NCBI GenBank assembly: GCA_937996675.1
Contig: CALKUN010000113.1
Location: forward strand, 1 to 48,871
Source: an uncultured Candidatus Saccharibacteria bacterium
GTDB lineage: Bacteria; Patescibacteriota; Saccharimonadia; CAILAD01; GCA-016700035
Direction of reading: 5' to 3'
DNA: 48,871 bases
The notes beneath the pieces were generated by a model. The model worked only from the letters and a program-made list of their open reading frames with translations. It was not told the origin of the DNA and made no database searches. This document shows positions 365 through 35,722 of this stretch, piece after piece. The stretch's first letter is position 1; each line of letters begins with the position of its first letter. Both the position numbers and the translations under genes were made by a program.

Positions 365-400
365 ATAGTAAAAGCCCCGCCGAAGCGGGGCTTTTACTAT
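365..400. terminator. Bidirectional hairpin terminator between the ftsB-like gene and tRNA-CAT
   Basis: Perfect 16-bp stem ATAGTAAAAGCCCCGC / GCGGGGCTTTTACTAT with loop CGAA. It has A/T runs on both sides and abuts the 3' end of the minus-strand tRNA. Confidence 0.7.
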
Positions 401-475
401 GGTGGCTGTGGGTGGAATCGAACCACCGACCTTTGGCTTATGAGTCCACTGCTCTAACCCCTGAGCTACACAGCC
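400..475 (-). tRNA. tRNA with anticodon CAT (elongator Met or lysidine-dependent Ile2)
   Basis: The reverse complement reads GGCTGTG-TA-GCTC-AGGGGTTA-GAGC-A-GTGGA-CTCATAA-GCCAA-AGGTC-GGTGG-TTCGATT-CCACC-CACAGCC-A-CCA. This is a 76-nt cloverleaf with encoded CCA. The acceptor, D and T arms pair well, but the anticodon stem has only 3 Watson-Crick pairs. Confidence 0.8.
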
Positions 476-3295: not shown

Positions 3296-3371
3296 TGGTA
3301 GCGGGGGAAGGACTCGAACCTCCGACCTTCAGGTTATGAGCCTGACGAGCTGCCAACTGCTCCACCCCGCG
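3296..3371 (-). tRNA. Initiator-type tRNA-fMet (anticodon CAT)
   Basis: The reverse complement is CGCGGGGTGGAGCAGTTGGCAGCTCGTCAGGCTCATAACCTGAAGGTCGGAGGTTCGAGTCCTTCCCCCGCTACCA. The 5' part closely resembles my recollection of E. coli tRNA-fMet. Position 1:72 is unpaired (C opposite U), which is typical of bacterial initiators. CCA is encoded. Confidence 0.88.
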
Positions 3372-17489: not shown

Positions 17490-18194
17490 ATGTCTATCAC
17501 CGCACGACAAGCAGCTATTCTAGCTGAAATCATTCGTCAGTACGCCCATGGAGCCGAACCTGTTGGGAGCCATGCTCTTGCTGAGACGTTTGATGTGTCG
17601 AGTGCGACGATCCGAGCCGATATGGCCGCTCTGGAGCGCGAAGACTACATCTATCAGCCCCACATCTCATCAGGGCGCGTACCTACCGACAAAGGCTATC
17701 GCTTTTACGTCAATAACCTTACTGGTAGCGAAATGGCTACTCGTACGGCTATGACGATGGAGAAGCGCGTTGCGAGCCTCAAAGACCGAACGGATCATGC
17801 TATTAAAATTGCGACTGAGACTCTGTCAGATCTGACTGGTAATATGGCTTTTGCTACGCTCGCGGACAATGTGTACTTCCATGGTCTCCACCAGCTCTTT
17901 TCGCAGCCGGAGTTCGCTCACGCCCTACAGGCCGCCGCCGCCGCTCGCTATCTAGATGCTATGAGTGAATGGCTCTACGGTCGAGGCTTTCGCGATGACA
18001 TGGGCATCTTCATCGGCGCAGAGAACCCCTTCGCCCGTTCGAGCGGAATGGCCATGGTGCTAGCTCGATTCGAGAGCCCTTACTCGCCGTATTCCTACGT
18101 CGGCGTCGTCGGACCGACCAGACAAGATTACGCCAAAGTCACCGGACTCGTTCAGCTCACCGGACAAAAATTAGAGGAGGTCTTCAATGCCTAA
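17490..18194 (+). CDS. hrcA: Heat-inducible transcription repressor HrcA (compact, 234 aa)
   Basis: N-terminal winged helix (RQAAILAEIIRQY...SSATIRADMAALE) and the C-terminal VGVVGPTRQDY motif. The hrcA-grpE-dnaK order and upstream CIRCE sites support the call. Confidence 0.9.
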   Translation: MSITARQAAILAEIIRQYAHGAEPVGSHALAETFDVSSATIRADMAALEREDYIYQPHISSGRVPTDKGYRFYVNNLTGSEMATRTAMTMEKRVASLKDRTDHAIKIATETLSDLTGNMAFATLADNVYFHGLHQLFSQPEFAHALQAAAAARYLDAMSEWLYGRGFRDDMGIFIGAENPFARSSGMAMVLARFESPYSPYSYVGVVGPTRQDYAKVTGLVQLTGQKLEEVFNA

Positions 18195-18753
18195 ACCATC
18201 AGATAACACACCAGAAATTCCCGAACAACCAAAGGGCGCAAAGTCATCTAAGTTTGCAAAGAAGCAGCCCAAGATCGATCCAGTAGAAGTACTTACAGCT
18301 GATCTTCAGCGTGTTCAGGCAGACTTTGAAAACTACAAGAAACGCGTCGCTGGTGAGCGTAGCGAGCTCATGAATAGCGCCAAGCTATCAGTGCTCTCTG
18401 ACCTTCTTCCGGCCCTTGATAATTTTGACCGAGCAGCCACTCATCTTCCTGAGCATCTCACGAGTGATCCATGGGCACAGGGGATGAGCTATGTTGGCTC
18501 GCAGCTCGAGACAATTCTGTCCGACATGGGCGTCAAGAAATTTGATCCAGCCGGCCAGGAATTTGATGCCACAGAGCATGAAGCTCTGGAGTACGTTGAG
18601 TCGGACAAGCCAGAGGGGATCGTGCTTGAAACGCTCACTCCGGGCTATATCATTGGCGATCGGGTCGTCCGCCCAGCCACCGTTCGCGTGAGCTCAGGAG
18701 CTTTTCAGCCAAACCAACAAGACATTGATGACGCTAAGGAGGATACCGCATGA
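18187..18753 (+). CDS. grpE: Nucleotide exchange factor GrpE
   Basis: The coiled-coil LQRVQADFENYKKR motif and a C-terminal beta domain. It overlaps the hrcA stop. Confidence 0.93.
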   Translation: MPKPSDNTPEIPEQPKGAKSSKFAKKQPKIDPVEVLTADLQRVQADFENYKKRVAGERSELMNSAKLSVLSDLLPALDNFDRAATHLPEHLTSDPWAQGMSYVGSQLETILSDMGVKKFDPAGQEFDATEHEALEYVESDKPEGIVLETLTPGYIIGDRVVRPATVRVSSGAFQPNQQDIDDAKEDTA

Positions 18754-18932
18754 ACAAACCAAAACTTAAAATCATCTTGACGGCGATTTTAGCTTTCATC
18801 CTCGCTGTTCTGCTCTTTCGCGTCACAATGATTTTTGTTCAGGTAATTATCGGCTTCAGTATCATACTTGCACTTACGGTTATTATCTTTACAGCAATTA
18901 ATTCACGCTCGCAGAAAGGGCCCATCGAATGA
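18750..18932 (+). CDS. Small two-TM membrane protein inside the heat-shock operon
   Basis: 60-aa ORF with an ATGA overlap on the grpE stop and two clear hydrophobic helices. Confidence 0.45.
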   Translation: MNKPKLKIILTAILAFILAVLLFRVTMIFVQVIIGFSIILALTVIIFTAINSRSQKGPIE

Positions 18933-19011
18933 ATGAATTTTTGAAAGCTCTCGCACTCATCAAGAAGCGTAACGAAGACAAGAAACAAGAAGCAGCTAAG
19001 AAGGAGAATAA

Positions 19012-20925
<1,914 letters not shown>

Positions 20926-20955
20926 AAATGATCGAAAAAGAAGTAAACTAGAAGT

Positions 20956-21294
20956 ATGAAGACACTCATCGCCATGAGCTTGGCAGTGCTGCTCCTCCTC
21001 TCAGCAGGCTACTTCGCTACCACAACGATCACTACTAAGGTTGATCAAACCTGTAGTAGCGAATCAAACTACCAAAACTCATGGCGTGATGTGTATTTTT
21101 TCACGCAGCAGTCTGAGACCGGAGGCACGCCCTCCATGGACCTTAGGATGTGCACAGGGCCCTCAGTATACGTCCGTTACCACCCGGTAGACGTCGCGGC
21201 TGTGAGCTTCCTTGGCGCCCTGACGGCTGGCTTCATAACCTACAGAAATGAGACAATGCATACTAAGAAACCAAAACAGAAGGAGACAAAATAA
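20956..21294 (+). CDS. Hypothetical exported or membrane protein
   Basis: 112-aa ORF with an N-terminal signal/TM segment and a C-terminal hydrophobic segment. Its stop overlaps the next start (TAATG). Confidence 0.5.
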   Translation: MKTLIAMSLAVLLLLSAGYFATTTITTKVDQTCSSESNYQNSWRDVYFFTQQSETGGTPSMDLRMCTGPSVYVRYHPVDVAAVSFLGALTAGFITYRNETMHTKKPKQKETK

Positions 21295-21689
21295 TGACTG
21301 AAACACCTGATAATCTCCGTACTATTCATATCTACGTCGTCGAAGGCGATGACGTGTGGATCAAGCAGAATAATGACAGTCTGAACATCCAGTGGGATCC
21401 ACAGTCGGACGTCAAAGCGGGCGAGACGGTGTCTCGTCTGATGAACGAAGTATTCAATGGGAAACCGTTTGAGTTTCTCAACAGCGCCGAAAAGGCGTAT
21501 GATCCTACAGCGAAGGCCTTTTACTTTCTCGTCATGCTGCGCAACATCGGTGGGCCGACCGCAGCAGCGTCGGATTTGAAGAAGGTCAAGTCGATCTGGC
21601 TCACAGATGAAATCAACAAGCCAGACGGCGAATCAGAACTAATCAAAGATAGCTTCAAGCACTTTAAGCTATTACATAAACGAGTATAA
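21294..21689 (+). CDS. Hypothetical protein
   Basis: 131-aa ORF tightly packed in the operon. No family recognised. Confidence 0.5.
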   Translation: MTETPDNLRTIHIYVVEGDDVWIKQNNDSLNIQWDPQSDVKAGETVSRLMNEVFNGKPFEFLNSAEKAYDPTAKAFYFLVMLRNIGGPTAAASDLKKVKSIWLTDEINKPDGESELIKDSFKHFKLLHKRV

Positions 21690-21691
21690 CT

Positions 21692-22597
21692 ATGAAGACA
21701 ATATTTTTTATTGATGGCGAAAACTTCGTCTACCAACTACGTGACACATTGGCTAAAGGCCGCCTCATCCGCTACCGCGATGAGCTGGCACGTGTGGATA
21801 TTCGCAAGCTCTTTGTGAATACCCTGCAAGATGAAGGTGTGAAGGACTCGAGTATCCGCTACTATGCCTCCAAGATCCACATTATTGACCGTACGCCAGA
21901 GCTGAAAGAACGTACTGAGCGCTACCTAGCCGACTCTGAAGTCTGGCAGAAGGTCCTGGCTGACCAAAAGGTCGAATATATCGAAGCAGGTCACTTGCTC
22001 GTCCGTGACGGCAAACCATGCGTGGAGTGCGGACACCGTGAGCCTGTTTTGACCGAGAAGGGAACAGATGTAACTATCGCGACTGATCTCATCCGTGCAT
22101 CAGGCGAGAATGTTCGACTCGTCCTCTTGAGCTCAGATGGAGACCTCATGCCGGCGCTCGAAGAGTCCAAGCGACGTGGCTCCGAAGTGATTTATGTTGG
22201 ATTCCGCGGCGTGAGCAATGCGGCTCTCGCGCGGAATGCGACCAGCCGATTTACGATTACTACCAAGCTCGCCGCTGCCGTATTGGCACCAAAGTCCAAG
22301 TCTGATCCTGAATCAAAGGCTCGTCCAAAAGTTGGCGAGGTCAAAGGCAAAGGCACGACACAGCAGCAGAAGCCGCAAGCGACTGAGCACACTCACGCCG
22401 AACAGCCAGCTCCAGCTCAGGAAGTAAAGCCAAAGCCACAGAATCAGCAACGACGTGGACGAAATAATAACAATACTAATCGACAGAAGCCCGCCGCCGA
22501 TCAGCCAAGCGTATTTACCGGCTCTCGTCTAGCGAGCATTCTGCCAGGACCAGCGCCTGCCCAAAAGAAGGATAAGACCGATGGCCGAAAAGCGTGA
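21692..22597 (+). CDS. NYN-domain (LabA-like, PIN-fold) putative RNase with inserted zinc-ribbon-like segment and disordered basic tail
   Basis: [19 protein letters not shown] and [11 protein letters not shown] motifs of NYN domains, plus a CVECGH insert. The last 100 aa or so are low-complexity and K/P/Q-rich. It overlaps the dnaJ start by 17 nt. Confidence 0.7.
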
Positions 22598-23495
22598 TTA
22601 CTACGATATCCTCGGAGTACAGCGCGATGCGAGCCCCGACGATATCAAGAAGGCTTTTAAGAAGGCGGCTCTAAAGCACCATCCCGATCGCGAGGGCGGT
22701 GACGAAGCGAAGTTCAAAGAAGTTGGTGAGGCCTATGAGGTACTCTCCGATGATCAGAAGCGCGCTGCCTACGATCAGTATGGTCATGCGGCTGGCGCAG
22801 CCAACGCGGGCGGACCAGGCGGGGGTAATCCCTTTGGTGGTGGAGCTGGTGGATTTGATTTTGGCGGAATTCATTTCGACTTTGGTGGCGAACAAGCCGG
22901 AGGCTTTGGCGATATGTTTGGCGATTTATTTAGCACGGTGCGTGGTCGTCCGCGCGACGTCCAGGTCGCTCTGGCCATTGAGTTTATGGAAGCTATCCAT
23001 GGAGTCGAGCGCGAGCTCAGTCTGCGTATTATGGATCGCAGCACCAATGAGCGTAAGTCTGAAACGGTGAAGATCAAAGTGCCAGCCGGTATTGATGACG
23101 GTCAGACGATTCGCGTCGGTGGACGCGGTGAGTATGGGAGCCAAGGACAACGTGGCGATCTGTACGTAGAGATTCACGTTCGTCCAGATCGCAACTTTGA
23201 ACGGCAGGGTCCACACATTGTGAGTCGCGTAAAGGTTGATATGGTCGATGCCGCTCTCGGTACCGAGGTTGAGATCAAGACCCTTGAGGGCGATGTAACA
23301 ATTAAGGTCCCAGCTGGAACGCAGCCAGGCAAAGTACTCAAGTTGAGTGGCAAAGGGGTAGCCGTACCGGGCTCGAACCAGCACGGTGATCATCTCGTGG
23401 AGGTTAGTATTCATATTCCAACTAAGCTGACGGCCAAACAGAAAGCAGCCTTGCAGGACTATCGCAAAGGTCAGAAAAAAAGCCTCTTTCATTAA
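22581..23495 (+). CDS. dnaJ: J-domain co-chaperone lacking the zinc-finger domain (class B, CbpA-like DnaJ)
   Basis: J domain with HPD (KHHPDR), a G/F-rich region and C-terminal substrate-binding domains. The 304-aa protein contains no cysteine at all, so the CxxCxGxG domain is absent. Confidence 0.9.
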
Positions 23496-25141: not shown

Positions 25142-25669
25142 ATGCAATTTGGCTCAGTTCACGTCGATCCCAACTTCCTGATATTTGGTGTGCTTGGCGT
25201 GTTCTTTGTACTCACCTTTCTCTTCGGTGAAACCCGACTCCGGCGGGTGGCACTTGCACTACTTGCTGGGCTCTTCGCGGCTGACCAACTGACAAATCTC
25301 GCAATGACACAGCTCTCCAAGTCTGGCAGCGGGGGCGGTGAAGAAATGATGATCAAGCTCGGTATCCTTGGTACTATTCTGGTGCTCATGTCGCTGGGCA
25401 AAGCACCATCAGTCGGCGGCCACTTCTCTATACGCAGCATGGTACTCTCATTACTTACTGCAGCAACGCTTCTAGCGAATGTCTTTAGTTACCTGCCATC
25501 AGGGGAACAAAGCCAGTTGGAGAATGACTATAATCTTGCAGCTATCGCGATGAATAATCGTTCGTGGTGGCTCGTAGGTTTAATTTTCTGGCTCATCTTG
25601 CTACAACTCTGGAAGAAGAAGGCCAAAGAAGACGACTCAGCCGGTAAAGGCAAGAAGGGCAAGAAATAG
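25142..25669 (+). CDS. Hypothetical integral membrane protein
   Basis: 175-aa ORF with about 5 hydrophobic helices and a Lys-rich tail. TACAAT lies 6 nt upstream of the ATG and there is no SD. Confidence 0.6.
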   Translation: MQFGSVHVDPNFLIFGVLGVFFVLTFLFGETRLRRVALALLAGLFAADQLTNLAMTQLSKSGSGGGEEMMIKLGILGTILVLMSLGKAPSVGGHFSIRSMVLSLLTAATLLANVFSYLPSGEQSQLENDYNLAAIAMNNRSWWLVGLIFWLILLQLWKKKAKEDDSAGKGKKGKK

Positions 25670-25723: not shown

Positions 25724-27016
25724 ATGAAGCAAACGCTCTACGAACGCCTCCTCAGGCGTTTTTTGATCAGCTGTATCCGGCGAGTCATGCGCAAGCAGTC
25801 GCCTCGGGTTATTGTCGTGACTGGTAGTCTCGGCAAGACTTCGACGCGGGCTGCTGTGGCGCGAGCCATCTCTGGTAGCTGGCCAGTCTTCACTCGCAGC
25901 CTCAAGAGCAACTTTGACCGAGGCCCCCTCATGGCGTTCTTCGGCCTGCGCCCCAACAAGAACATTCGCGGACGGCGTTTTTGGGTAGAAGATGTGCCGC
26001 GCATTTTGCGGCTCAGCAAGAAATATCCATATGAGCTGGTAGTGTTGGAAATATCTGAGATATCACTTACCAACCAGCTTGACCTGATAGAGGTGTTGCA
26101 GCCTACGATCTCTGTGCTGACAAGTCTCGCCAAGGTGCACGCATCGGATCACGCCGAGGATGACATCACATTACAGATGCAGAGCCTTATCGAGCATAGT
26201 GAGTCAGTTATCTACAATGCTGACTTTTCATCGCTGAAGGTAGTGGTCGACAATCATCCGCGAGTGAAGAGTTATGGTAGCGCCCGAACAGCCGACTATC
26301 GATTGATAGTGGCTGGGGTTGGCATAGACCAGCTCAGCAATTTCGTAATCCGACATGGCATGCAAGAATGGGACGTGCCGAGCAATCAGATCGGTCAGCA
26401 CTCTGGCGTGGCATACTCCGCGGCATTGGCCGTGACGGATGTGCTGGGCGGTGACATCCCCGATGCAATTGCCGAACTCAAGCTGCTCTACCCGGTGCGA
26501 GGTCGTCTCAATCCATTGCGGGGCATTCGTAAGTCTCTCATCATTGACGACTGCTACAACGCGAACGCTATCTCGATGGGTGCGGCGCTTGATACCCTGG
26601 CTCGGTTCCCGGCACCACGTATCGCTGTCTTGGGCAGTATGAATGAACTCGGCGACCATAGCCCTCGCGAGCACCGGGCTGTCGGTAGGAGAGTAGCGCA
26701 GTCGGCTGATGTGCTCATTGCGATAGGCGAAGATTCTACTCGCTATCTAGCACCTGCTGCGATACAGGCAGGCATGAAGTCCGACCAAGTGCATACATTC
26801 GAGTCGGCCCGAGCAGCCGGTGCCTATCTCAAACGGCATGTAGCCGTAAGCAGTACTGTTATGGGCAAGGGCTCTCAAGACGGCGTCTATACCGAAGAGG
26901 CCTTGCTTCCACTAGTAGTAGGGCGTGACAAGCGGCGACTGATCCGTCAGACGGCTTTCTGGCGAGCCAAAAAAGATCGTTTCTATGCCAATCTACAGAC
27001 TCGTCCAACTGAGTAA
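25724..27016 (+). CDS. Mur ligase family protein, MurF-like, lacking the N-terminal domain
   Basis: P-loop VTGSLGKTST, and DDCYNANAISMGAALDTL and GSMNELG blocks that resemble MurF. It sits next to ATP-grasp ligases rather than in a dcw cluster. Confidence 0.75.
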   Translation: MKQTLYERLLRRFLISCIRRVMRKQSPRVIVVTGSLGKTSTRAAVARAISGSWPVFTRSLKSNFDRGPLMAFFGLRPNKNIRGRRFWVEDVPRILRLSKKYPYELVVLEISEISLTNQLDLIEVLQPTISVLTSLAKVHASDHAEDDITLQMQSLIEHSESVIYNADFSSLKVVVDNHPRVKSYGSARTADYRLIVAGVGIDQLSNFVIRHGMQEWDVPSNQIGQHSGVAYSAALAVTDVLGGDIPDAIAELKLLYPVRGRLNPLRGIRKSLIIDDCYNANAISMGAALDTLARFPAPRIAVLGSMNELGDHSPREHRAVGRRVAQSADVLIAIGEDSTRYLAPAAIQAGMKSDQVHTFESARAAGAYLKRHVAVSSTVMGKGSQDGVYTEEALLPLVVGRDKRRLIRQTAFWRAKKDRFYANLQTRPTE

Positions 27017-27021
27017 AGGTA

Positions 27022-27050
27022 TTTACAAAGATCTTAAAAACAGGTATAAT
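27022..27050 (+). promoter_or_regulatory. sigma70-type promoter directly abutting the first ATP-grasp gene
   Basis: TTTACA (27022-27027), a 17-nt spacer, then TATAAT (27045-27050), then 9 nt to ATG 27060 with no SD. Confidence 0.5.
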
Positions 27051-27059
27051 ATAAGCACT

Positions 27060-27995
27060 ATGACCACCAAGCCACACAATCATGATGTGCTGGTCTTTTT
27101 TAGCTTTAAGTCCCACAAAAAAGGCTACTACAAGACACTCTTCGACCGTCTGACGAGCCAGGCGGCTGATTTTGGTTTGACTCTGCATCAGGGCTCACTC
27201 AAGGACCTCGTTATTTCCTACAAAGATAATAAGATGGAGATCACCGAAACAATGACCGGACGTGATCTATCTTCGTTTGGACTCGTATACTTTGAGCTTT
27301 TTACCAAGGCTCCACAGCAGGCATTGGCCGCCGCCGCTTACTTGGACCGCAAGAGGGTGCCATACTTCTCGCCGCAGGTTCGACAGATCCTTCCAGACTC
27401 TAAGCTGGCCGAAATGGCTCTCTTGGCCGATAATGGGCTCTCGATTCCAGATGGCATCACGTCTTCAAATACTCAGCTCAAGTCGATCTTTCGCGCGGAC
27501 CATCCAATTGAGTACCCATTCATTCTCAAAAGCGTGAAAGCCTTTGGTGGTGCTATGAATTTTTTGGTTCACGACTATGCCGAGCTTGTTGCTCACTTGG
27601 ATGAGAATCCGCAGGAGACGTTTATTATTCAGAGCTTTATTCCAAACCAGTTTGATTACCGCGTTCTGATCTTCGGTGGTGAGGTCAAACTCGTGCTCAA
27701 GCGATCACGCAATAGCGCCGAGACCCATCTCAATAACACATCCAAGGGTGCAGCTGGCGAATTCCTCGACCCATCCGAACTCACCGAAGATCAGATGGCT
27801 GATACACTCAAAGCAGCCAAGCTGCTCGGCCGGGAGGAGTTCTGTGGACTCGACCTGATTATCAATGAGCAGACTGGCGAGCACAGCATTCTGGAGATTA
27901 ATGAATCACCTGGTATCGAGCTTGGTGTCGAGCCTGAGAAGAAAATGGGCATCATGCTGGCCTATATGAAATCACGAATGGAGACACAGTCATGA
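27060..27995 (+). CDS. RimK-type ATP-grasp ligase paralog 1
   Basis: DYRVLIFGGEV, HLNNTSKGAAGE, GLDLI and ILEINESPG blocks matching the RimK/GshB-like ATP-grasp core. The start is chosen at the ATG after the promoter; track ORF 26985 overlaps the upstream gene. Confidence 0.75.
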   Translation: MTTKPHNHDVLVFFSFKSHKKGYYKTLFDRLTSQAADFGLTLHQGSLKDLVISYKDNKMEITETMTGRDLSSFGLVYFELFTKAPQQALAAAAYLDRKRVPYFSPQVRQILPDSKLAEMALLADNGLSIPDGITSSNTQLKSIFRADHPIEYPFILKSVKAFGGAMNFLVHDYAELVAHLDENPQETFIIQSFIPNQFDYRVLIFGGEVKLVLKRSRNSAETHLNNTSKGAAGEFLDPSELTEDQMADTLKAAKLLGREEFCGLDLIINEQTGEHSILEINESPGIELGVEPEKKMGIMLAYMKSRMETQS

Positions 27996-29383
27996 CACGA
28001 CCAGCTATGCAGAAGCCGCGAATTCTCTTCATGTTTGCCCGTGAGGCGGCAGCTGGATCGACTCGTTTTGATGGTTTTGTGAAGCGCCTCAAGAAGTATG
28101 GTGACTTCTCATTTGCGGACGCTGATGTTGCAGCGATCGAAGATATGGTCTTCCTGATCGATAAGCGCAAGGCCAAAGTCATCGACTGGCGTACGAAGAA
28201 AGACCCAGCCGACTACGACTTTGTGTACTTCAAGAACTGGCAGAGTATGCCCGACCAAGCAGCAGCCCTAGCTGTGTATCTAGAAGCCAAGGGTGTGCCA
28301 TACATCGACTACGCGATCACTCAGCGTCGTGGTAATGCTGGTAAGATTATCACTATGCTCAAGCTTTGGGCGGCACGCATTGCTACGCCGCGTACTGTTT
28401 ACGCATCGCCGAAACGCGTCGCGGACGTAGTGAGTTCCGATCTTGTGCAGTATCCGATGGTGATCAAGGCTGCGAATGGTGAGAAAGGTCAGAATAATTA
28501 TCTTGTAAAGACTGCTGCAGCAGCCCGCAAGGTCATTGCTGAACAGCCCGAGATCGACTGGATCATTCAGGACTTCATTCCAAATGATGGCGATTGGCGT
28601 GTACAAGTCTATGGCGGAGAGCCGGCCATGGTGATCAAGCGCAAGGGGAGTGGCGCGTCGCATCTCAATAATACTTCGGCTGGCGGAACGGCTGAGCTCT
28701 TTGAGCACAAAAAGGTACCCACAGCTGTGCTAGACTTGGCAGTCAAGGCTGCCGAGGTAATGGATCTTGCAGTATCGGGAGTAGACGTCATCGTCGACAA
28801 AGAGACCGGACGCAAGGCTATTCTTGAGGTGAACCAAGGTTCGCAAGTAGTCACTGGCGCGCATATCGAAGAAAACATCCAGGGCTTTGTAAAGTTCCTG
28901 AAGCGCACCACTCGCCGCCGCTACCATCGTAAGTCGACCCACGGCCTGCCGAAGAAAGTCATCGGACGCATCGAGCTGGTAGGGCTTCCCGAGTTTGGCC
29001 TCACCGACATTGCTGCAAAGTCTGACACTGGTGCATATAGTGGTGCATTGCACGCTGAGAACATCCGCCTGATCGAAAAAGGAAACAAGAAAGAACTTCA
29101 TTTTCAAATCCCGCACTTCACCGATGGCCGCACCCACACCACTGAACTCGTCGATTGTGTCAGTCATGACTTTGAAGCAGTTTTTGTAAAAAGCTCCAAT
29201 GGACAACGGCAGAACCGCTATAAGATCAGTACACTAGTACGTATACAAGGGCGCGGCTATCAGGCGCAATTCACCCTTACGAACCGTCAAACCCAGAAGG
29301 TGCCAATGCTGCTCGGCCGCAAGCTGTTGCGCGGCAACTTCCTAGTCAATGTAGAACTATCAAGAGGAGAAACACAATCATGA
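27992..29383 (+). CDS. Fusion of RimK-type ATP-grasp ligase (paralog 2) and a RimB/DUF785-like retropepsin-type aspartic peptidase domain
   Basis: The ATP-grasp blocks DWRVQVYGGEP, HLNNTSAGGTAE, GVDVIVD and ILEVNQGS are present. The C-terminal 150 aa or so carry AKSDTGAYSGALHA (DTG active-site-like) and MLLGRKLLRGNFLVN, as in proteins annotated 'putative ATP-dependent zinc protease' (RimB). ATGA overlap with the upstream gene. Confidence 0.7.
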   Translation: MTRPAMQKPRILFMFAREAAAGSTRFDGFVKRLKKYGDFSFADADVAAIEDMVFLIDKRKAKVIDWRTKKDPADYDFVYFKNWQSMPDQAAALAVYLEAKGVPYIDYAITQRRGNAGKIITMLKLWAARIATPRTVYASPKRVADVVSSDLVQYPMVIKAANGEKGQNNYLVKTAAAARKVIAEQPEIDWIIQDFIPNDGDWRVQVYGGEPAMVIKRKGSGASHLNNTSAGGTAELFEHKKVPTAVLDLAVKAAEVMDLAVSGVDVIVDKETGRKAILEVNQGSQVVTGAHIEENIQGFVKFLKRTTRRRYHRKSTHGLPKKVIGRIELVGLPEFGLTDIAAKSDTGAYSGALHAENIRLIEKGNKKELHFQIPHFTDGRTHTTELVDCVSHDFEAVFVKSSNGQRQNRYKISTLVRIQGRGYQAQFTLTNRQTQKVPMLLGRKLLRGNFLVNVELSRGETQS

Positions 29384-30288
29384 AAATCGCCATTCTATCA
29401 GCCGGACGAAAAAACTACTCTACTCAACGTCTCATGGAGGCGGCGGTTGCGCGTGGTCACGAAGCTATTATCGTCAACTACACCAAGGCATATATGGCGA
29501 TTGAGAGCTCTAACCAGACGGTACACGCTGCCGATCAGGAGATCACTGAAGATGTGCAGGCGGTAATTCCTCGTATTGCAGCCAAGCACACCAACTACGG
29601 TACGGCTGTGTTGCGTCAGTTTGAAATGATGCGTGCCTATACAGCGACCAGCTCACTGGCTCTCGTCCGTAGCCGTGACAAGCTCCGTTCGATGCAGCTT
29701 CTCGCTCGTGCTGGCGTGGGTATTCCCAAGACCGTCTTTGCGAGCCAGACAGCTGATGCTAACGACCTCCTTGAGCTCGTCGGCGGCGCACCGGTAGTTG
29801 TGAAACTCCTCGAAAGTACTCATGGATCAGGCGTCGTGTTGGGTGAGACTAAGAAAACTGCCAAGTCTATTATTGAGGCCTTCAACTCGATCAATGCCAA
29901 GATCATCTTGCAGGAGTTTGTGGAAGAAGCTGACGGCGCTGACATTCGTGTAGTCGTGGTAGGCGATCGCATCGTGGCTTCGATGATGCGTAAGGGCGGT
30001 GAAGGTGAATTCCGTAGTAACACTCATCGTGGCGGACAGGTTCTTCCAGTCCAACTCACCAAGAAGGAGGCAAACATCGCGCTCAAGGCGGCTCGTACGC
30101 TCGGTATTAATATTGCTGGTGTAGATATCATCCGATCAAAGCGTGGCCCATTGATCCTCGAAGTAAACAGCTCACCAAGCCTCAAGGGCGTGGAGCGTCT
30201 CACCGGGCAGGACATCGCTGGCGAGATGATCGACTATGTAGTCGCGCGAGCACAGGGCAAGCGAACGCGCGATAAGATAGGGGCATAA
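29380..30288 (+). CDS. rimK: Ribosomal protein S6--L-glutamate ligase-type ATP-grasp enzyme (RimK)
   Basis: Canonical RimK length and blocks: DIRVVVVGDRIVASM, EFRSNTHRGG, GVDIIRS, ILEVNSSPSL. ATGA overlap with the upstream gene. Confidence 0.85.
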   Translation: MKIAILSAGRKNYSTQRLMEAAVARGHEAIIVNYTKAYMAIESSNQTVHAADQEITEDVQAVIPRIAAKHTNYGTAVLRQFEMMRAYTATSSLALVRSRDKLRSMQLLARAGVGIPKTVFASQTADANDLLELVGGAPVVVKLLESTHGSGVVLGETKKTAKSIIEAFNSINAKIILQEFVEEADGADIRVVVVGDRIVASMMRKGGEGEFRSNTHRGGQVLPVQLTKKEANIALKAARTLGINIAGVDIIRSKRGPLILEVNSSPSLKGVERLTGQDIAGEMIDYVVARAQGKRTRDKIGA

Positions 30289-30337: not shown

Positions 30338-30366
30338 TTGATTATTACTGATAAAAATAGTATAAT
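30338..30366 (+). promoter_or_regulatory. sigma70-type promoter of GC-rich cassette F
   Basis: TTGATT (30338-30343), a 17-nt spacer, then TATAAT (30361-30366). A strong SD AAGGAAGGAG lies at 30397-30406. Confidence 0.6.
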
Positions 30367-30411: not shown

Positions 30412-31701
30412 ATGAGCTCAACCGCAACCCGTTGGAAGGATCAGTCCTTCGCTATCGCATCCTCAAATGGAGCGGCGCCGATCCATGATTGGTTCGAACA
30501 GACACCCGAGGTGCTGGCACGCTTGCGTGCAGCTCTTCTCGCCGGCAGCCCGTTGAATCCTCAGTACCCCGTACTTCAGGCTCAGGATCTCACCGCCAAG
30601 GTCGCAAGTCTGAGCGGATACACGGCATCCGACCAGCCGCTGGAGAAGTTGTACTCGCAGGTCTTCAGCCAGCGCAGGAGGCTTCTGCAGCTGGCCATCG
30701 CCGCGCAGGCGGGTGACATGGCAGCCTTCAGGGTCGCCACAGAGAACATGGCCCTGCAGCCGGACGTCGGATCGTTTCGACGCATTCTCGGCAATCTCGC
30801 CGAGCGTGCTGGAGACCGACCCAACCGGGCCGCCGAAGAGCTGTTCGGCATGTTCCCGCCGGACTACGGCTTCAAGCCGAGCTTGCCGCGAGCAGCCTTC
30901 GTTCAGAAGCTGCGCGATCCAGTGATGGCACTGGTCGAGTCGCTCGGTCTGCCAACCGTCATCCCTCCCGCCGAGGAGGTGTGGGATGCCAAGCGCATCG
31001 CTGCGACCCTGGAAGCCACGGTTCTGCCACCGGCGTTCGATGATGCGCGCGTCAAGATGCGCGTCGTCATCACCGCCAAGAAGCCACGCCCCGTCGCCAC
31101 GCGGAAGGGCACGATGTACATCCCGGAGAGCCTCATGCTCAACGGGGTGGATGCATATGTGCTGATGGTGCGCCTTCGACTCACCGTCGAGCGCTGGTAC
31201 CGAGGTGAGCTCACCGGCTACTACATCATGCTCAACGGCACCGTTGCCGACCTGACTGCCGGCCCGGCCATCCTCACGGTGGTCGAGCAGGTTCTGAGGA
31301 GCAATGCCAACTTCTACGCCGAGGAAGATGCCTACCTGGCATGCTCGTTGGCGGAGGGGATCGGCTCTGAGCCCAAGTCCATCTACGAAGTGTACGCCGC
31401 CATGGTGGCGTACTACCGCTTCGTGGACACGCAGCTGCCCACGGGTGCCGCCATTCCACGCTCGATCGAAGACCGCGCGTGGTCGATGACCTGGAAGACC
31501 TTCGCCGGAACCGACTGCAAGACCCCCGGGGTCTACGCCGGTTTCGGTACCAGGGCTTTGCGAGCCACGGTCAGCCTCTGGGATGCCCTTATGCGCGAGC
31601 CGCGCATCGTCGAGTGCTTCCACCTGGGTCGATTCGATCCTGGCTTCGCGACCGAAGTGAACCTTCTGGTCGAAGCGGGGGCCATTCCGGCTCTGAGGTA
31701 G
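30412..31701 (+). CDS. GC-rich orphan protein F (429 aa), no family confidently recognised
   Basis: Hand counts of lines 30481 and 30781 gave about 65-68% G+C, with G/C-dominated third positions on the plus frame. The 386-aa antisense shadow ORF (30463..31623) is typical of high-GC coding DNA. A strong SD precedes the start and a terminator follows. Confidence 0.7.
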   Translation: MSSTATRWKDQSFAIASSNGAAPIHDWFEQTPEVLARLRAALLAGSPLNPQYPVLQAQDLTAKVASLSGYTASDQPLEKLYSQVFSQRRRLLQLAIAAQAGDMAAFRVATENMALQPDVGSFRRILGNLAERAGDRPNRAAEELFGMFPPDYGFKPSLPRAAFVQKLRDPVMALVESLGLPTVIPPAEEVWDAKRIAATLEATVLPPAFDDARVKMRVVITAKKPRPVATRKGTMYIPESLMLNGVDAYVLMVRLRLTVERWYRGELTGYYIMLNGTVADLTAGPAILTVVEQVLRSNANFYAEEDAYLACSLAEGIGSEPKSIYEVYAAMVAYYRFVDTQLPTGAAIPRSIEDRAWSMTWKTFAGTDCKTPGVYAGFGTRALRATVSLWDALMREPRIVECFHLGRFDPGFATEVNLLVEAGAIPALR

Positions 31702-31716
31702 GAGGATTTAGTACCC

Positions 31717-31759
31717 GCGACTGTTGCTATGACGTACGTCATAGCAACAGTCGCTTTTT
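31717..31759. terminator. Strong hairpin terminator after cassette F, shared with the convergent trpC-like gene
   Basis: Perfect 17-bp stem GCGACTGTTGCTATGAC / GTCATAGCAACAGTCGC with loop GTAC, followed by TTTTT. Confidence 0.85.
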
Positions 31760-33572: not shown

Positions 33573-34979
33573 ATGAGGCGGTTTACGCAGATCTTCGCAG
33601 CTATGGGCGCCTGGCTCGCGGGACTCGTCATCGCCAGTCAGTGGATATTAGCGCTTAATCTTCTCGCCATGTCGCTACTGGTAGCTCTCGCGCTCACTGC
33701 TCTTTGGATCGTGCGGTCCAAGCTCGGCTATATCCTGGTATTCGTCGCCTTTGTGTCACTCGGCATGGTCAGGGGGCAGCTCTACTTTGCACAACAGGAG
33801 CGTTGGTCGGTGGAGAATCTGCTAGGCGAGAAGGTAGAGCTTGTCGGGCGAGTGACTGGTGAGCCGAGCTGGAATGCTGATCGACTTCATGAATTCTATA
33901 TCGACGGCATTACTCTGAACGGACGCCCGGTACCAGGCATGATGAAGATCAAGAGTCTGGTCGGGAGCTCGCAGGAGGGCCAGGTTGTGCGGGTCGTAGG
34001 CAAGGTAGGCCATGCACTTGGTCGGGCGCCAACGCAAATATGGTATGCCAAGGTCGAGACGATAGACCGGAATATTCCGTATCCGATTCGATTGAAGAAC
34101 CTGCTCGGACATGGACTGGCGGTGGCGCTTCCGCGCGAGGAGGCAGGCTTTGTGCGAGGGCTGCTCTTCGGCACGAGTGCAGCCGTGTCGACACAACTAG
34201 AGGCAAACTTACGCGCTGTTGGGCTCACGCATATCATTGCGGTGTCTGGCTACAACCTCACGATCATCGTGGCGGCGTTGACTGTTTTTTCACGACGGAG
34301 GAGCAGCAACTCATTGCTACTAGCTCTGGCGGGTATTAGTTTCTTCATTATTATGACGGGTGCACCTGCCTCCATTGTGCGGGCTGGAGTGATGGCCGGA
34401 ATATTCTTGCTGGTGAGCTACTATCGTCGCGAGCTTGATCCTCGTATCGCACTTGCTGCTACTGTTGTTGCGATGAGCGCCTGGAATCCAACGTATCTTT
34501 ATGCAGATATTGGGTGGCAGTTGTCTGTCTTAGCGCTGGCTGGTGTGTTGTGGCTGGCGCCTGGCTTCCGGCCAAAAGCCATCACTCGACACAAGACATT
34601 TTGGGAGGTCTTCTCGACCGCTATTGGTGCCTACATCGCGACCGCACCTATCCTGGCGTACTATTTTGGGACTGTGTCTTTTGTCGCACCACTCGCCAAC
34701 ATATTTATCCTGCCTGTTGTGCCGGTGATTATGTTGTTGGGATTTGTGGCAGCGCTGGTCGGCGTATTAGTACCGAGCGCAGCCTTTGTGTTCATGCAGC
34801 CGGTCGCATGGGTGGTTTCATTAGTCGTGCGGATGATAACGGCATTTGCGCATGTGCCACATGCCAGCGAACATTTTGTTCTGGATGCCAGCGTAGTGCT
34901 CACGACATACATCGGTCTGCTCGTGATTGCATTCGTAATGATGCGTCGGGGTTCAAAATTGATAGCAAAAAGGCTATAA
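33573..34979 (+). CDS. comEC: ComEC/Rec2 DNA internalisation channel protein (no C-terminal metallo-beta-lactamase domain)
   Basis: An N-terminal OB/DUF4131-like region is followed by a polytopic competence domain with GLTHIIAVSGYNLTII. The 468 aa end straight after the membrane domain. Confidence 0.85.
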   Translation: MRRFTQIFAAMGAWLAGLVIASQWILALNLLAMSLLVALALTALWIVRSKLGYILVFVAFVSLGMVRGQLYFAQQERWSVENLLGEKVELVGRVTGEPSWNADRLHEFYIDGITLNGRPVPGMMKIKSLVGSSQEGQVVRVVGKVGHALGRAPTQIWYAKVETIDRNIPYPIRLKNLLGHGLAVALPREEAGFVRGLLFGTSAAVSTQLEANLRAVGLTHIIAVSGYNLTIIVAALTVFSRRRSSNSLLLALAGISFFIIMTGAPASIVRAGVMAGIFLLVSYYRRELDPRIALAATVVAMSAWNPTYLYADIGWQLSVLALAGVLWLAPGFRPKAITRHKTFWEVFSTAIGAYIATAPILAYYFGTVSFVAPLANIFILPVVPVIMLLGFVAALVGVLVPSAAFVFMQPVAWVVSLVVRMITAFAHVPHASEHFVLDASVVLTTYIGLLVIAFVMMRRGSKLIAKRL

Positions 34980-34987
34980 TTCCAGAT

Positions 34988-35722
34988 ATGAGTGGTCACA
35001 GTAAATGGGCAAGCATCAAGCACAAAAAAGGTGCTCTAGATGCTAAGCGCGGTAAGATCTTTACCAAGCTTGGCAACGAGATCGCTATCGCGGCACGCGA
35101 TGGTGCGGATCCGGATGCAAACTTTCGCCTTCGTCTAGCTATCCAAAAAGCCAAGCAGTCTAATATGCCAGCGGCCAACATCGATCGATCGATTGCTCGT
35201 GGTGCTGGCACGGCCGGTGGTGCCGCATTGGACGAGCTCACCTACGAGGGCTACGGTCCGGCTGGTGTAGCTGTCATGGTGCAGGCGCTGACGGACAACC
35301 GCAACCGCACGGCTTCTGATGTGAAGCTGGCATTTTCTAAGCATGGCGGTACCTTGGGTAGTCAGGGCAGTGTGGCCTATCTCTTTGAAACAAAAGGCGT
35401 ATTGGTCTGCACGACAGATGCCGATGCCGATGAAGTGACACTGGCAGCCATTGAGGCCGGCGCACTCGACATAGATGATAGCGGGGAGCAGGTGATTATT
35501 TATACTAAGCCTAGCGAGCTCGAAGCTATTCGCATGGCTGTTGGTGAGAACAATGTTGAGAGCTCGGACGTTGAGCAAATAGCTAGCCAGACCATCGCAG
35601 TGGAAGACGCGGGCAAAGCCGGCACACTGATGCGTATGATTGACGCCCTCGAAGATCTTGATGATGTCGCGACAGTGACAGCCAACTACGACATCGCTGA
35701 GTCGATTCTCGAAAGTCTCTAA
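34988..35722 (+). CDS. yebC: YebC/PmpR family DNA-binding regulator
   Basis: MSGHSKWASIKHKKG...KRGKIFTKL N-terminus. The start is set at ATG 34988; the track ORF extension from 34514 overlaps comEC and is discarded. Confidence 0.93.
   Translation: MSGHSKWASIKHKKGALDAKRGKIFTKLGNEIAIAARDGADPDANFRLRLAIQKAKQSNMPAANIDRSIARGAGTAGGAALDELTYEGYGPAGVAVMVQALTDNRNRTASDVKLAFSKHGGTLGSQGSVAYLFETKGVLVCTTDADADEVTLAAIEAGALDIDDSGEQVIIYTKPSELEAIRMAVGENNVESSDVEQIASQTIAVEDAGKAGTLMRMIDALEDLDDVATVTANYDIAESILESL

What the first reader, a model, noticed from the sequence alone, without database searches (positions are those of the whole stretch)
25724..30288. Translationally coupled MurF-like ligase plus three RimK-type ATP-grasp ligases, one fused to a RimB-like aspartic peptidase
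Seen: four consecutive plus-strand genes. The first is a Mur-ligase-family protein with MurF-like blocks (VTGSLGKTST, DDCYNANAISMGAALDTL, GSMNELG) but no N-terminal domain. It is followed by two divergent ATP-grasp paralogues and a canonical RimK. The last three are linked by ATGA start/stop overlaps. The middle protein carries a C-terminal domain with AKSDTGAYSGALHA and LLGRKLLRGNFLVN, matching the DUF785/RimB retropepsin-like fold.

Established: RimK adds poly-alpha-glutamate tails to ribosomal protein S6, and RimB trims them in Pseudomonas. Cyanophycin synthetase combines an ATP-grasp domain with a Mur-ligase-like domain to build a branched amino-acid polymer. PgsB-type Mur-like ligases make poly-gamma-glutamate.

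Inference: having ATP-grasp and Mur-ligase chemistry on separate polypeptides, together with a built-in trimming peptidase, suggests a non-ribosomal peptide or polymer-tailing system. Candidate products are protein C-terminal tails, a cyanophycin-like storage polymer, or a modified muropeptide stem. I do not know of this having been described for CPR bacteria.
Basis: partly seen in the sequence, partly recalled or inferred. Interest (0 to 1): 0.75.

Follow-up and report, generated by a model that had tools for sequence, protein, structure and literature searches.

The report
Saccharibacterial RimK-type ligase module beside MurF
The three ATP-grasp ligase genes, one fused to a RimB-like protease, form a conserved Saccharibacteria variant of the ribosomal-protein-S6 glutamate-tailing system, and the MurF-like gene upstream is most likely the ordinary cell-wall ligase parked next to it, not part of it.

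Summary
All four genes and the quoted motifs are real. They are a MurF-type ligase lacking the N-terminal domain, two divergent ATP-grasp paralogues (AG1 and AG2), with AG2 fused to a RimB/PF05618 retropepsin-like domain, and a canonical RimK. The two ATGA overlaps are real.

MurF is not coupled to the rest. AG1 starts at 27060, and the 43-nt spacer holds the best promoter-like site in 8.5 kb.

The [AG1]–AG2/RimB–RimK block lies downstream of hrcA-grpE-dnaK-dnaJ in about 85 related loci (365 relatives in species-representative genomes). The RimB domain is variously fused to AG2, free, or fused to RimK. Catalytic residues are kept. S6 of relatives usually ends in Glu-Glu.

MurF belongs to a short MurF family of CPR (candidate phyla radiation) bacteria. 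It usually sits near leuS, and in two other contigs it follows an FtsI-like PBP. It abuts the Rim block in only four loci, always upstream of the block's promoter.

A different, cyanophycin-synthetase-M-like ligase sits inside the block in three other lineages.

Verdict: a new variant of the RimK/RimB system; MurF involvement is unsupported but not excluded. I could not test whether the genome has a second murF.

The parts
17490..23495 (+). Upstream heat-shock context: hrcA (17490-18194), grpE (18187-18753), dnaK (19015-20925), NYN-domain gene (21692-22597), dnaJ (22581-23495).
   Evidence: Pfam matches. The same order precedes the Rim block in nearly all related loci.
25142..25669 (+). ORF175: a small membrane protein with a Lys-rich tail. 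It is the conserved gene upstream of the Rim block in the clade that contains the window.
   Evidence: No Pfam or NCBIfam match. Three hydrophobic segments. Homologues occupy the same position in L001, L004, L009, L010, L014-16, L040-42, L064 and L169.
25724..27016 (+). Short MurF-type Mur ligase of the CPR kind. It has central and C-terminal domains only, a roughly 25-aa insertion after the P-loop, and a conserved C-terminal helical extension. Probably the housekeeping UDP-MurNAc-tripeptide:D-Ala-D-Ala ligase.
   Evidence: Pfam and NCBIfam matches. The seven best PDB sequence matches are MurF and the eighth is MurE. The top 8 Foldseek hits are all MurF. Alignment shows no domain 1 and intact GKT, E109, H139, N165/D167, R261, DDxYN and H317. 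AlphaFold pLDDT 92.8. Family contexts.
27022..27050 (+). Sigma-70-like promoter TTTACA-N17-TATAAT in the MurF-AG1 spacer. The -10 box ends 9 nt before the AG1 ATG, which suggests a near-leaderless transcript.
   Evidence: 11 of 12 matches, the best site in 8.5 kb. Near-consensus equivalents lie upstream of the first ATP-grasp gene in L001, L004, L009-11, L014-16 and L050, and a weaker one lies between MurF and RimB in L169. This is a consensus match only; no transcript data are available.
27060..27995 (+). AG1: a divergent RimK-superfamily ATP-grasp ligase (311 aa from the corrected start; the longest ORF starts at 26985).
   Evidence: Pfam RimK E=8.5e-14; TIGR00768 66.8 bits, below the 143.4 cutoff. 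46-49% identical to AG1 of L004 and L007. Keeps the residues equivalent to E. coli RimK K141, Q177, D187, R189, R203, N213, D248, E260 and N262.
27992..28915 (+). AG2: the ATP-grasp ligase part of the fusion protein (residues 1-308). It is a paralogue of AG1 (27-34% identity).
   Evidence: Pfam RimK E=5.5e-14; TIGR00768 92.2 bits, below the cutoff. The best Foldseek and PDB sequence matches are RimK structures. Invariant K159, Q193, D201, R203, R217, N226, N227, D265, E279 and N281 across 54 homologues.
28952..29383 (+). RimB-like retropepsin-type aspartic peptidase domain (residues about 321-457), fused to AG2 through a disordered linker (residues 311-316).
   Evidence: PF05618 E=1.5e-16 (61 bits against a cutoff of 27). 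NF052261 RimB E=1e-20 (74 bits, below the 200 cutoff). PDB 9g59 and 2pma matches. D345-T-G347-A348 invariant (T or S at 346). All-beta domain in the AlphaFold model.
29380..30288 (+). Canonical RimK (alpha-L-glutamate ligase; ribosomal protein S6 modification enzyme).
   Evidence: NF007764 equivalog 347.3 bits, above the 331 cutoff. Rimk_N plus RimK domains. 50% identical to E. coli RimK. ATGA overlap with the fusion gene.

Best explanation
Genes 2-4 form one operon with its own promoter at 27022-27050, and the genes are translationally coupled through two ATGA overlaps. The operon is a Saccharibacteria-wide variant of the RimK/RimB system.

Proposed mechanism:
- RimK adds alpha-linked glutamates to the Glu-Glu C-terminus of ribosomal protein S6, or makes free poly-alpha-glutamate.
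- The DTG retropepsin-like RimB domain trims such tails.
- AG1 and AG2 are catalytically competent sister paralogues of RimK that work in the same complex. Their altered substrate loop suggests a different amino acid or a different acceptor.
- The position after hrcA-grpE-dnaK-dnaJ suggests a stress-linked role.

Gene 1 is the organism's short MurF of the CPR kind, which adds D-Ala-D-Ala to the peptidoglycan precursor. In one small clade it has come to lie just upstream of this operon without belonging to it.

Shown here: domains, conservation, catalytic residues, overlaps, synteny and S6 C-termini. Inferred: the substrates, the promoter function, and the housekeeping status of MurF.
For: The block is conserved:
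- 365 relatives were found in species-representative genomes, nearly all Saccharibacteria.
- In about 85 loci the block follows dnaK/dnaJ.
- Architectures among the 85 loci tabulated: AG>AG-RimB>RimK in 38 loci, AG-RimB>RimK in 19, AG>RimB>RimK in 9, and AG>RimB-RimK hybrid in 3 (L051 confirmed by Pfam). The rest are variants.
- The RimB domain moving between AG2, a free gene and RimK is Rosetta-stone evidence, meaning a fusion in one genome that points to partnership elsewhere.

Catalytic residues:
- Ligase residues are invariant in AG1, AG2 and RimK.
- D-T/S-G-A is invariant in the RimB domain.

RimK and its substrate:
- RimK passes NCBI's equivalog cutoff.
- 16 of the 21 closest S6 homologues (52-100% identical), including one named Saccharibacteria, end in -EE.
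- RimB cleaves poly-Glu and stimulates RimK in Pseudomonas, and RimB-RimK hybrids are known (PMC11957791).

MurF is a separate unit:
- Corrected AG1 start and a promoter-like site in the spacer.
- Promoter-like sites between MurF and the Rim genes in L001, L050 and L169.
- MurF is absent from the block in about 84 loci, including the close relatives L004 and L009-13.
- The family is MurF by sequence and fold.
- Family members follow an FtsI-like PBP in L094 and L097 and lie near leuS-nusB-rnc in L003, L170 and L171.
- In the MurF tree the Rim-adjacent copies cluster with the L002/L170 group, which lies next to obg (a leuS gene follows in L170).
Against: - MurF adjacency is patchy within one clade. 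It is present in the window, L001, L050 and L169. It is absent in L004, L009-16, L040-42 and L064, even though L050 and L064 share 88% RimK identity. An accessory copy that is easily lost explains this more simply than repeated relocation of an essential gene.
- The insertion point is a variable spot that also holds an orphan HExxH gene.
- The Rim-adjacent MurFs are the most divergent in the family. They show 12-20 deviations at 83 columns that are at least 90% conserved, against a mean of 2.9 for the rest.
- A second, unrelated Mur-type ligase (cyanophycin-synthetase-M-like) sits inside the block in L039, L052 and L068. Mur-type chemistry can therefore be recruited to this module.
- S6 of the window's own genome was not seen.
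- The substrates of AG1 and AG2 are unknown.
- The promoter is a consensus match only, and no terminator follows MurF.
Confidence: 0.6

Rival explanations
1. The MurF-like protein is an accessory, specialised ligase that works with the ATP-grasp/RimB module. It would add an amino acid or dipeptide to the tail or polymer the module makes, giving a split, cyanophycin-synthetase-like or tail-capping system. This is essentially the first reader's idea.
For: - MurF adjacency is patchy among close relatives, which fits a dispensable extra copy.
- It sits in a variable insertion spot.
- Its sequence divergence is elevated.
- It is retained next to three different Rim configurations: AG1+AG2-RimB, AG2-RimB alone, and RimB alone.
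- Stand-alone cyanophycin-synthetase-M-like ligases are embedded in the same block in L039, L052 and L068.
Against: - It has no similarity to the CphA M domain and is clearly MurF-type by sequence and fold.
- All residues invariant in the family alignments, including the DDxYNAN and GSMNELG motifs, are kept.
- It lies outside the operon's promoter-like site in all four loci.
- It is absent from about 84 of about 88 loci.
- No second MurF has been shown in any of these genomes.
- It does not co-vary with a particular AG2 type.
Confidence: 0.15
2. AG1 and/or AG2 act in peptidoglycan precursor synthesis. They would be a Ddl-like dipeptide ligase feeding MurF, or a side-chain amino-acid ligase. 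The MurF adjacency would then echo the classical ddl-murF operon.
For: - In many metagenomic contigs a canonical MurF is directly preceded by a roughly 350-370-aa ATP-grasp gene, which I interpret as Ddl but did not annotate.
- AG1 homologues give weak Ddl-family matches.
- The AG1/AG2 substrate loop differs from RimK (HLNNTSAGG instead of SN(L/T)HRGG).
Against: - The Ddl matches are far below cutoff: 22-30 bits against cutoffs of 243-246.
- AG2 is fused to, or adjacent to, a poly-Glu-type protease and RimK in essentially every locus.
- The AG genes are present in about 84 loci where MurF is not nearby.
- The best structural and sequence relatives are RimK, ArgX and LysX, which modify protein C-termini.
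Confidence: 0.05
3. The module does not target S6. It makes a free poly-amino-acid (poly-alpha-glutamate or a mixed polymer), or tails another protein. RimB would generate primers or recycle the polymer, with three ligases giving different residues or chain steps.
For: - RimK makes free poly-alpha-glutamate and RimB stimulates this. The published RimBK hybrid did not glutamylate the Pseudomonas fluorescens SBW25 RpsF it was tested on (PMC11957791).
- Three ligase paralogues are more than S6 tailing needs.
- Cyanophycin-synthetase-M-like ligases occur in some clusters.
Against: - RimK passes the S6-ligase equivalog cutoff.
- The S6 C-terminal Glu-Glu is conserved in relatives.
- In L007 rpsF lies about 3 kb upstream of the block.
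Confidence: 0.2

Closest known systems
RimK/RimB (RimABK) ribosomal protein S6 glutamylation system of Pseudomonas and E. coli (PMC4741518, PMC7343187, PMC11957791)
   Same: - A canonical RimK (above the equivalog cutoff; 50% identical to E. coli RimK).
- A PF05618 DTG retropepsin-like protease encoded in the same operon.
- S6 ends in Glu-Glu in relatives.
   Different: - No RimA.
- One or two additional divergent ATP-grasp paralogues (AG1, AG2), which fall below the RimK-family cutoff and have a different substrate loop.
- The protease is fused to AG2, not free.
- The block sits in a fixed position after the heat-shock operon in a reduced-genome CPR lineage.
RimBK hybrid enzyme (Desulfotalea psychrophila DP2392; Little et al. 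2025, PMC11957791)
   Same: A RimB-type protease domain and an ATP-grasp ligase on one polypeptide. Some relatives (L033, L051, L069, L088) carry exactly this RimB-N-terminal/RimK architecture.
   Different: In the window the domain order is reversed (ligase N-terminal, protease C-terminal). The ligase partner is the divergent paralogue AG2, and a separate canonical RimK is also present.
RloABC operon of Pseudomonas aeruginosa (PMC12239564)
   Same: A retropepsin-like PF05618 protease encoded with a RimK-like ATP-grasp protein that is not RimK itself.
   Different: RloA proteases are secreted (they have signal peptides), and the operon has a transglutaminase-like membrane protein RloB. Here the protease is a cytoplasmic fusion domain and there is no RloB.
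MurF (UDP-MurNAc-tripeptide:D-Ala-D-Ala ligase) and the ddl-murF gene pair
   Same: - Central and C-terminal Mur ligase domains.
- P-loop, DDxYNAN and GSMNELG motifs.
- MurF structures are the best sequence and fold matches.
- An ATP-grasp gene lies next to it.
   Different: - Lacks MurF domain 1.
- Has an insertion and a C-terminal extension shared by the whole short MurF family of CPR bacteria.
- Scores below the TIGR01143 cutoff.
- The neighbouring ATP-grasp genes are RimK-type, not Ddl.
Cyanophycin synthetase CphA1 (ATP-grasp G domain plus Mur-like M domain; PMC9262961, PMC9427784)
   Same: ATP-grasp and Mur-type ligase chemistry encoded together, with a hydrolytic activity that could create primers.
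   Different: The window's Mur ligase has no detectable CphA-M similarity. The domains are on separate proteins and separated by a promoter-like site. Only L039, L052 and L068 carry a true CphA-M-like ligase in the block.

Membership tests
MurF (TIGR01143 / E. coli MurF type) | Central ATP-binding Mur ligase domain with a GxxGKT/S P-loop and conserved Glu, His and NxD residues | tested here: met
   PF08245 E=3.8e-8. G34, G37, K38, T39, E109, H139, N165 and D167 are conserved.
MurF (TIGR01143 / E. coli MurF type) | C-terminal domain with MurF-type DDxYNAN and GSMxELG motifs | tested here: met
   PF02875 E=2e-18. DDCYNANAISM and GSMNELG align with E. coli DDSYNANVGSM and GDMAELG.
MurF (TIGR01143 / E. 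coli MurF type) | N-terminal domain 1 (about residues 1-81 of E. coli MurF) | tested here: not met
   The P-loop is at residues 31-41, against about 104-114 in E. coli. The AlphaFold model shows only helix 5-24 before strand 28-34. The whole CPR family shares this.
MurF (TIGR01143 / E. coli MurF type) | Score above the curated family cutoff | tested here: not met
   TIGR01143 scores 144.7 bits against a cutoff of 288.6. It is still the best-scoring family by about 25 bits.
MurF (TIGR01143 / E. coli MurF type) | Closest solved structures are MurF | tested here: met
   The seven best sequence matches are MurF and the eighth is MurE. Foldseek ranks 1-8 are all MurF, E=3e-22 to 2e-20.
MurF (TIGR01143 / E. 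coli MurF type) | Single-copy housekeeping gene in a cell-wall gene context | tested here: inconclusive
   Family members follow an FtsI-like PBP in L094 and L097 and lie near leuS in L003, L170 and L171. The copy number in the window's genome could not be determined.
MurF (TIGR01143 / E. coli MurF type) | Ligates D-Ala-D-Ala to UDP-MurNAc-tripeptide | not testable with these tools
   Needs an enzyme assay or complementation.
RimK (S6:L-glutamate ligase, NF007764) | Rimk_N plus RimK ATP-grasp domains, scoring above the equivalog cutoff (gene 4) | tested here: met
   347.3 bits against a cutoff of 331. PF18030 and PF08443 match.
RimK (S6:L-glutamate ligase, NF007764) | Same criterion applied to AG1 and AG2 | tested here: not met
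   NF007764 scores 22.1 and 36.5 bits. TIGR00768 scores 66.8 and 92.2 bits against a cutoff of 143.4. They are RimK-superfamily paralogues, not RimK.
RimK (S6:L-glutamate ligase, NF007764) | ATP- and Mg-binding residues (E. coli K141, D248, E260, N262 and others) | tested here: met
   Invariant in RimK, AG1 and AG2.
RimK (S6:L-glutamate ligase, NF007764) | Acceptor: ribosomal protein S6 ending in Glu-Glu | tested here: inconclusive
   16 of the 21 closest S6 homologues, including L007's and one named Saccharibacteria, end in -EE. rpsF of the window's own genome is not in the window.
RimB / PF05618 retropepsin-like peptidase | PF05618 domain above the gathering score | tested here: met
   61 bits against a cutoff of 27, residues 323-457.
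RimB / PF05618 retropepsin-like peptidase | Catalytic Asp in a D-T/S-G motif | tested here: met
   D345-T-G347-A348 is invariant across 54 homologues.
RimB / PF05618 retropepsin-like peptidase | RimB equivalog cutoff (NF052261) | tested here: not met
   74.1 bits against a cutoff of 200. It is a distinct subfamily.
RimB / PF05618 retropepsin-like peptidase | Cleaves poly-glutamate tails | not testable with these tools
   Needs a protease assay.
RimBK hybrid (PMC11957791) | RimB domain at the N-terminus of a bona fide RimK | tested here: not met
   In the window RimB is C-terminal to the divergent AG2, and RimK is separate. The published architecture does occur in L051.
Cyanophycin synthetase-like system | Mur-type ligase related to the CphA M domain | tested here: not met
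   No TIGR02068 or NF010623 match for the window's Mur ligase. The feature is met by the L007/L039, L052 and L068 proteins (E=2.7e-47, 6.4e-45, 1.9e-49).
Known anti-phage defence systems (PADLOC) | Any component matching a PADLOC model | tested here: not met
   No matches for six proteins.

The most novel reading that the evidence does not exclude
The window's N-domain-less MurF-like protein would be a second, accessory copy that cooperates with the AG1/AG2-RimB/RimK module, as the cyanophycin-synthetase-M-like ligases may do in L039, L052 and L068. It would then not be the cell-wall MurF. Saccharibacteria would then build a capped or branched peptide tail, or a cyanophycin-like polymer, from separate ATP-grasp and Mur-type ligases with a built-in trimming protease.
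Probability: 0.13. Interest if true: 0.8.

Novelty: new variant of a known kind. Interest (0 to 1): 0.42.

Why it matters
Saccharibacteria have genomes of roughly 0.7-1 Mb and lack most biosynthetic pathways (from my own knowledge of the group). Even so, many of them, all the loci sampled here, keep two or three RimK-type ligase genes and a dedicated protease right after the heat-shock operon.

That points to an important role for glutamate (or other amino-acid) tailing of S6 or another target in these epibionts. It also extends the RimK/RimB story to a new architecture with extra ligase paralogues of unknown specificity.

The short MurF without domain 1, shared across CPR bacteria, raises the question of how the UDP-MurNAc substrate is bound.

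The occasional cyanophycin-synthetase-M-like partner marks lineages where a split poly-amino-acid synthetase could be tested.

Tried and rejected
- **Closer relatives of the window's MurF.** The metagenome scan found none; the best hit was 31% identical.
- **A second murF or the rest of the genome.** Not possible. The window holds no obg/leuS or dcw (cell-division/cell-wall) region, and the window's species is not among the scanned species representatives (best AG2 match 67%).
- **MurF remnants in relatives lacking MurF.** tblastn found none in L004, L009-16, L040-42 or L064.
- **rpsF in the window and in about 170 loci.** Found only in L007/L039, so S6 C-termini came from a protein search instead.
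- **DnaK or DnaJ as alternative acceptors.** DnaK ends in a conserved ...EEGE(I/V)VD-KK and DnaJ in basic or hydrophobic residues. Neither ends in Glu, so there is no support.
- **AG1/AG2 as Ddl.** Only sub-threshold matches.
- **Defence system.** No PADLOC matches.
- **Literature.** No paper links RimK to Patescibacteria or Saccharibacteria, or discusses murF in Saccharibacteria or CPR bacteria.
- **Fold search with the fusion model.** It recovered only ATP-grasp matches. The protease domain was not reported separately, so its assignment rests on sequence.
- **Caveat on my own analyses.** The trees are rough neighbour-joining trees on BLOSUM distances, and the neighbourhood census used my own ORF caller with phmmer seeds from the window.

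Full report
**1. Observation**

The four plus-strand ORFs lie exactly where stated. Profile searches confirm the domain assignments:
- Gene 1 (25724-27016) has Mur ligase central and C-terminal domains. Its best family is murF (144.7 bits, below the 288.6 cutoff).
- Genes 2 and 3 are weak RimK-family ATP-grasp proteins.
- Gene 3 carries a C-terminal PF05618 domain (E=1.5e-16; RimB model E=1e-20).
- Gene 4 is a RimK that passes NCBI's equivalog cutoff (347.3 bits against 331).

The ATGA overlaps at 27992-27995 and 29380-29383 are real. Each has GGAG 8-10 nt upstream.

The loss of the MurF N-terminal domain is also real. The P-loop sits at residues 31-41, against about 104-114 in E. coli MurF. 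A confident AlphaFold model (pLDDT 92.8) shows only one helix before the P-loop strand. Its eight best PDB fold matches are all MurF.

One part fails: MurF is not coupled to the next gene. AG1 homologues align from Met26 of the long ORF, so AG1 starts at 27060. The 43-nt spacer after the MurF stop holds TTTACA-N17-TATAAT at 27022-27050. At 11 of 12 matches this is the best promoter-like site in 8.5 kb.

**2. Organism and setting**

Protein hits are named Candidatus Saccharibacteria or Saccharimonadia.

Upstream of the finding lie hrcA, grpE, dnaK, a NYN-domain gene, dnaJ and a small membrane protein I call ORF175. Elsewhere the window carries murJ, ftsH, tilS, lepA, comEC and ruvABC. It has no dcw (cell-division/cell-wall) cluster and no leuS or obg region.

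**3. The ATP-grasp block is a conserved module**

A scan of one genome per species with an alignment of the fusion protein found 365 relatives, almost all Saccharibacteria. I surveyed 80 of these loci plus others by phmmer. In nearly every case the block lies after dnaK/dnaJ.

Architectures among the 85 loci tabulated:

| Architecture | Loci |
|---|---|
| AG > AG-RimB > RimK | 38 |
| AG-RimB > RimK | 19 |
| AG > free RimB > RimK | 9 |
| AG > RimB-RimK hybrid | 3 (L051 confirmed by Pfam) |
| Other variants | 16 |

The protease domain therefore moves between the C-terminus of AG2, a free gene, and the N-terminus of RimK. This is classical evidence that the three proteins work together.

AG1 and AG2 are sister paralogues (27-34% identical, E about 1e-38). 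They are more distant from RimK (E about 1e-9).

All three keep the residues equivalent to E. coli RimK K141, Q177, D187, R189, R203, N213, D248, E260 and N262. AG1 and AG2 replace RimK's SN(L/T)HRGG loop with HLNNTSAGG, so their substrate may differ.

The protease domain keeps an invariant D-T/S-G-A motif. The fusion model shows an ATP-grasp body, a disordered linker (residues 311-316) and an all-beta domain. RimK, ArgX and LysX are its nearest structures.

**4. Link to S6**

Published work shows four things (PMC11957791, PMC12239564):
- RimK adds alpha-glutamates to the C-terminus of S6 and makes free poly-alpha-glutamate.
- RimB is a DTG retropepsin-like endopeptidase that removes such tails and stimulates RimK.
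- A RimB-RimK hybrid exists in Flavobacteriales and Rhodobacterales.
- That hybrid has RimB at the N-terminus.

The S6 gene seen in L007 ends in ...KKAKEE. Of the 21 closest S6 homologues, 16 end in -EE, including one named Saccharibacteria. This fits RimK acting on S6. The S6 of the window's own genome was not available.

No paper in the searchable library mentions RimK in Patescibacteria or Saccharibacteria.

**5. The MurF gene**

Its homologues are a large family of about 425-435-aa proteins from Saccharibacteria and other CPR (candidate phyla radiation) bacteria, many annotated as MurF.

All lack domain 1. All share a roughly 25-aa insertion and a conserved C-terminal extension (KGSQ..V..EEA...LVRQS..W..KK). 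A few have two or three N-terminal transmembrane helices instead.

Contexts of family members:
- Next to leuS-nusB-rnc in L003 (a complete TM7i genome), L170 and L171.
- After obg in L002.
- Directly after an FtsI-like class B PBP in two other contigs whose MurF falls in the same short family, L094 and L097.

These contexts, together with the fold result, make this family the likely housekeeping MurF of CPR bacteria.

Only the window, L001, L050 and L169 have MurF beside the Rim block. In each, a promoter-like element lies between MurF and the Rim genes.

Close relatives with 66-69% identical fusion proteins (L004, L009-13) have the same synteny without MurF. tblastn finds no MurF remnants there.

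**6.

- *Patchy adjacency.* In a RimK tree the four MurF-adjacent loci are scattered within one clade. L050 and L064 share 88% identical RimK yet differ in MurF presence. An expendable extra copy explains this more simply than repeated relocation of an essential gene.
- *Variable insertion point.* The spot also holds an orphan HExxH protein of about 617 aa in several relatives.
- *Divergence.* The Rim-adjacent MurFs are the most divergent members of the family: 12-20 deviations at 83 well-conserved columns, against a mean of 2.9. All residues invariant in the family alignments remain.
- *A second Mur-type ligase.* Three other lineages (L007/L039, L052, L068) carry a different, stand-alone Mur-type ligase inside the block. 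It matches the M domain of cyanophycin synthetase (E=2.7e-47, 6.4e-45, 1.9e-49).

Against this:
- The window's protein has no CphA-M similarity.
- In a MurF tree the Rim-adjacent copies cluster with the L002/L170 group, which lies next to obg (a leuS gene follows in L170), and are not a deep separate branch.
- MurF presence does not track either of the two AG2 types in the clade.

Whether the window's genome has another murF could not be tested.

**7. Other rivals**

- *Ddl-like role for AG1/AG2.* In many metagenomic contigs a canonical MurF is directly preceded by an ATP-grasp gene, which I interpret as the classical ddl-murF pair. This makes a Ddl-like role worth considering. It is unlikely here. 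Ddl scores are far below cutoff. The AG genes are tied to RimB and RimK everywhere, whether or not MurF is near.
- *Defence function.* No PADLOC matches.
- *Free polymer or another protein target.* This remains plausible and is listed as a rival explanation.

**8. Verdict**

The thing of interest is a three-ligase RimK/RimB-type module. The RimB domain is fused to the divergent paralogue in the reverse order from the published hybrid. The module is conserved across Saccharibacteria downstream of the heat-shock operon and is apparently undescribed. It is a new variant of a known kind.

The MurF-like gene is most likely the lineage's housekeeping MurF in a lineage-specific position (about 0.6). 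A modest chance remains (about 0.13-0.15) that it is an accessory partner.

Noticed in passing
window 25724-27016; P0024, P0098, P0032, P0059, P0069, P0092; L094:6990-8282; L097:8001-9293: The whole Saccharibacteria/CPR 'MurF' family lacks MurF domain 1. It has a roughly 25-aa insertion after the P-loop and a conserved C-terminal helical extension. Some members (about 540 aa) carry 2-3 N-terminal transmembrane helices instead. How such an enzyme binds the UDP moiety of its substrate is unclear, and I found no paper on it.
   Followed up: partly
L007/L039:7273-8556; L052:3968-5260; L068:3557-4840: Stand-alone Mur-type ligases of about 427-430 aa that match the M domain of cyanophycin synthetase (E=1e-45 to 1e-49). 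They sit inside the AG/RimB/RimK block in three lineages, at two different positions. This could be a split cyanophycin-synthetase-like system.
   Followed up: partly
L011:12-1865; also L001:2365-4221, L009:7179-9032, L014:5408-9029 (two copies), L050:1-525, L055: An orphan protein family of about 617 aa with an HEIAH (HExxH) motif and no Pfam or NCBIfam match. It occupies the variable spot between ORF175 and the Rim block in several relatives and is absent from the window.
   Followed up: partly
L033, L051:10922-12322, L069, L088; L055, L062, L065, L070, L075-L079, L083, L085, L169:6412-6837: The RimB domain changes place within the same operon. It is C-terminal to AG2 in most loci, a free gene of about 140-160 aa in about a dozen, and N-terminal to RimK (the published RimBK architecture) in four.
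   Followed up: yes
L001 compared with L004/L009 and L050/L064: The L001 cluster looks recombinant. Its RimK is 84-85% identical to L004/L009, but its AG2-RimB is only 33-34% identical to theirs and 54% identical to L050. Two AG2 types exist in the clade: one found with AG1 and one found mostly without it.
   Followed up: partly
window 30412-31701 (and 30338-30366, 31717-31754): A 429-aa orphan ORF in a GC-rich stretch (0.59, against about 0.52 elsewhere). It has its own promoter-like site and a strong 17-bp-stem terminator. It has no family match and no homologue in about 170 related loci, so it may be a recent insertion downstream of rimK.
   Followed up: partly
window 27045-27060: The -10 box of the predicted AG1 promoter ends 9 nt before the ATG, and no Shine-Dalgarno sequence lies between them. 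This suggests a leaderless or near-leaderless first gene. The two downstream genes have GGAG sites and ATGA overlaps.
   Followed up: no
window 400-475 and 3296-3371: Two tRNA-Met (CAT) genes on the minus strand flank a P-type cation ATPase gene (594-3122).
   Followed up: no
window 21692-22597: A NYN-domain (predicted RNase) gene with a long low-complexity, Lys/Gln-rich tail sits between dnaK and dnaJ. This placement is conserved in the clade containing the window (L004, L009, L010, L014-16, L040-42, L169).
   Followed up: no
window 34514-35722: The longest YebC/TACO1 ORF (402 aa) overlaps comEC by about 460 nt. The Pfam match begins at residue 163, so the true start is probably near 35000.
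   Followed up: no
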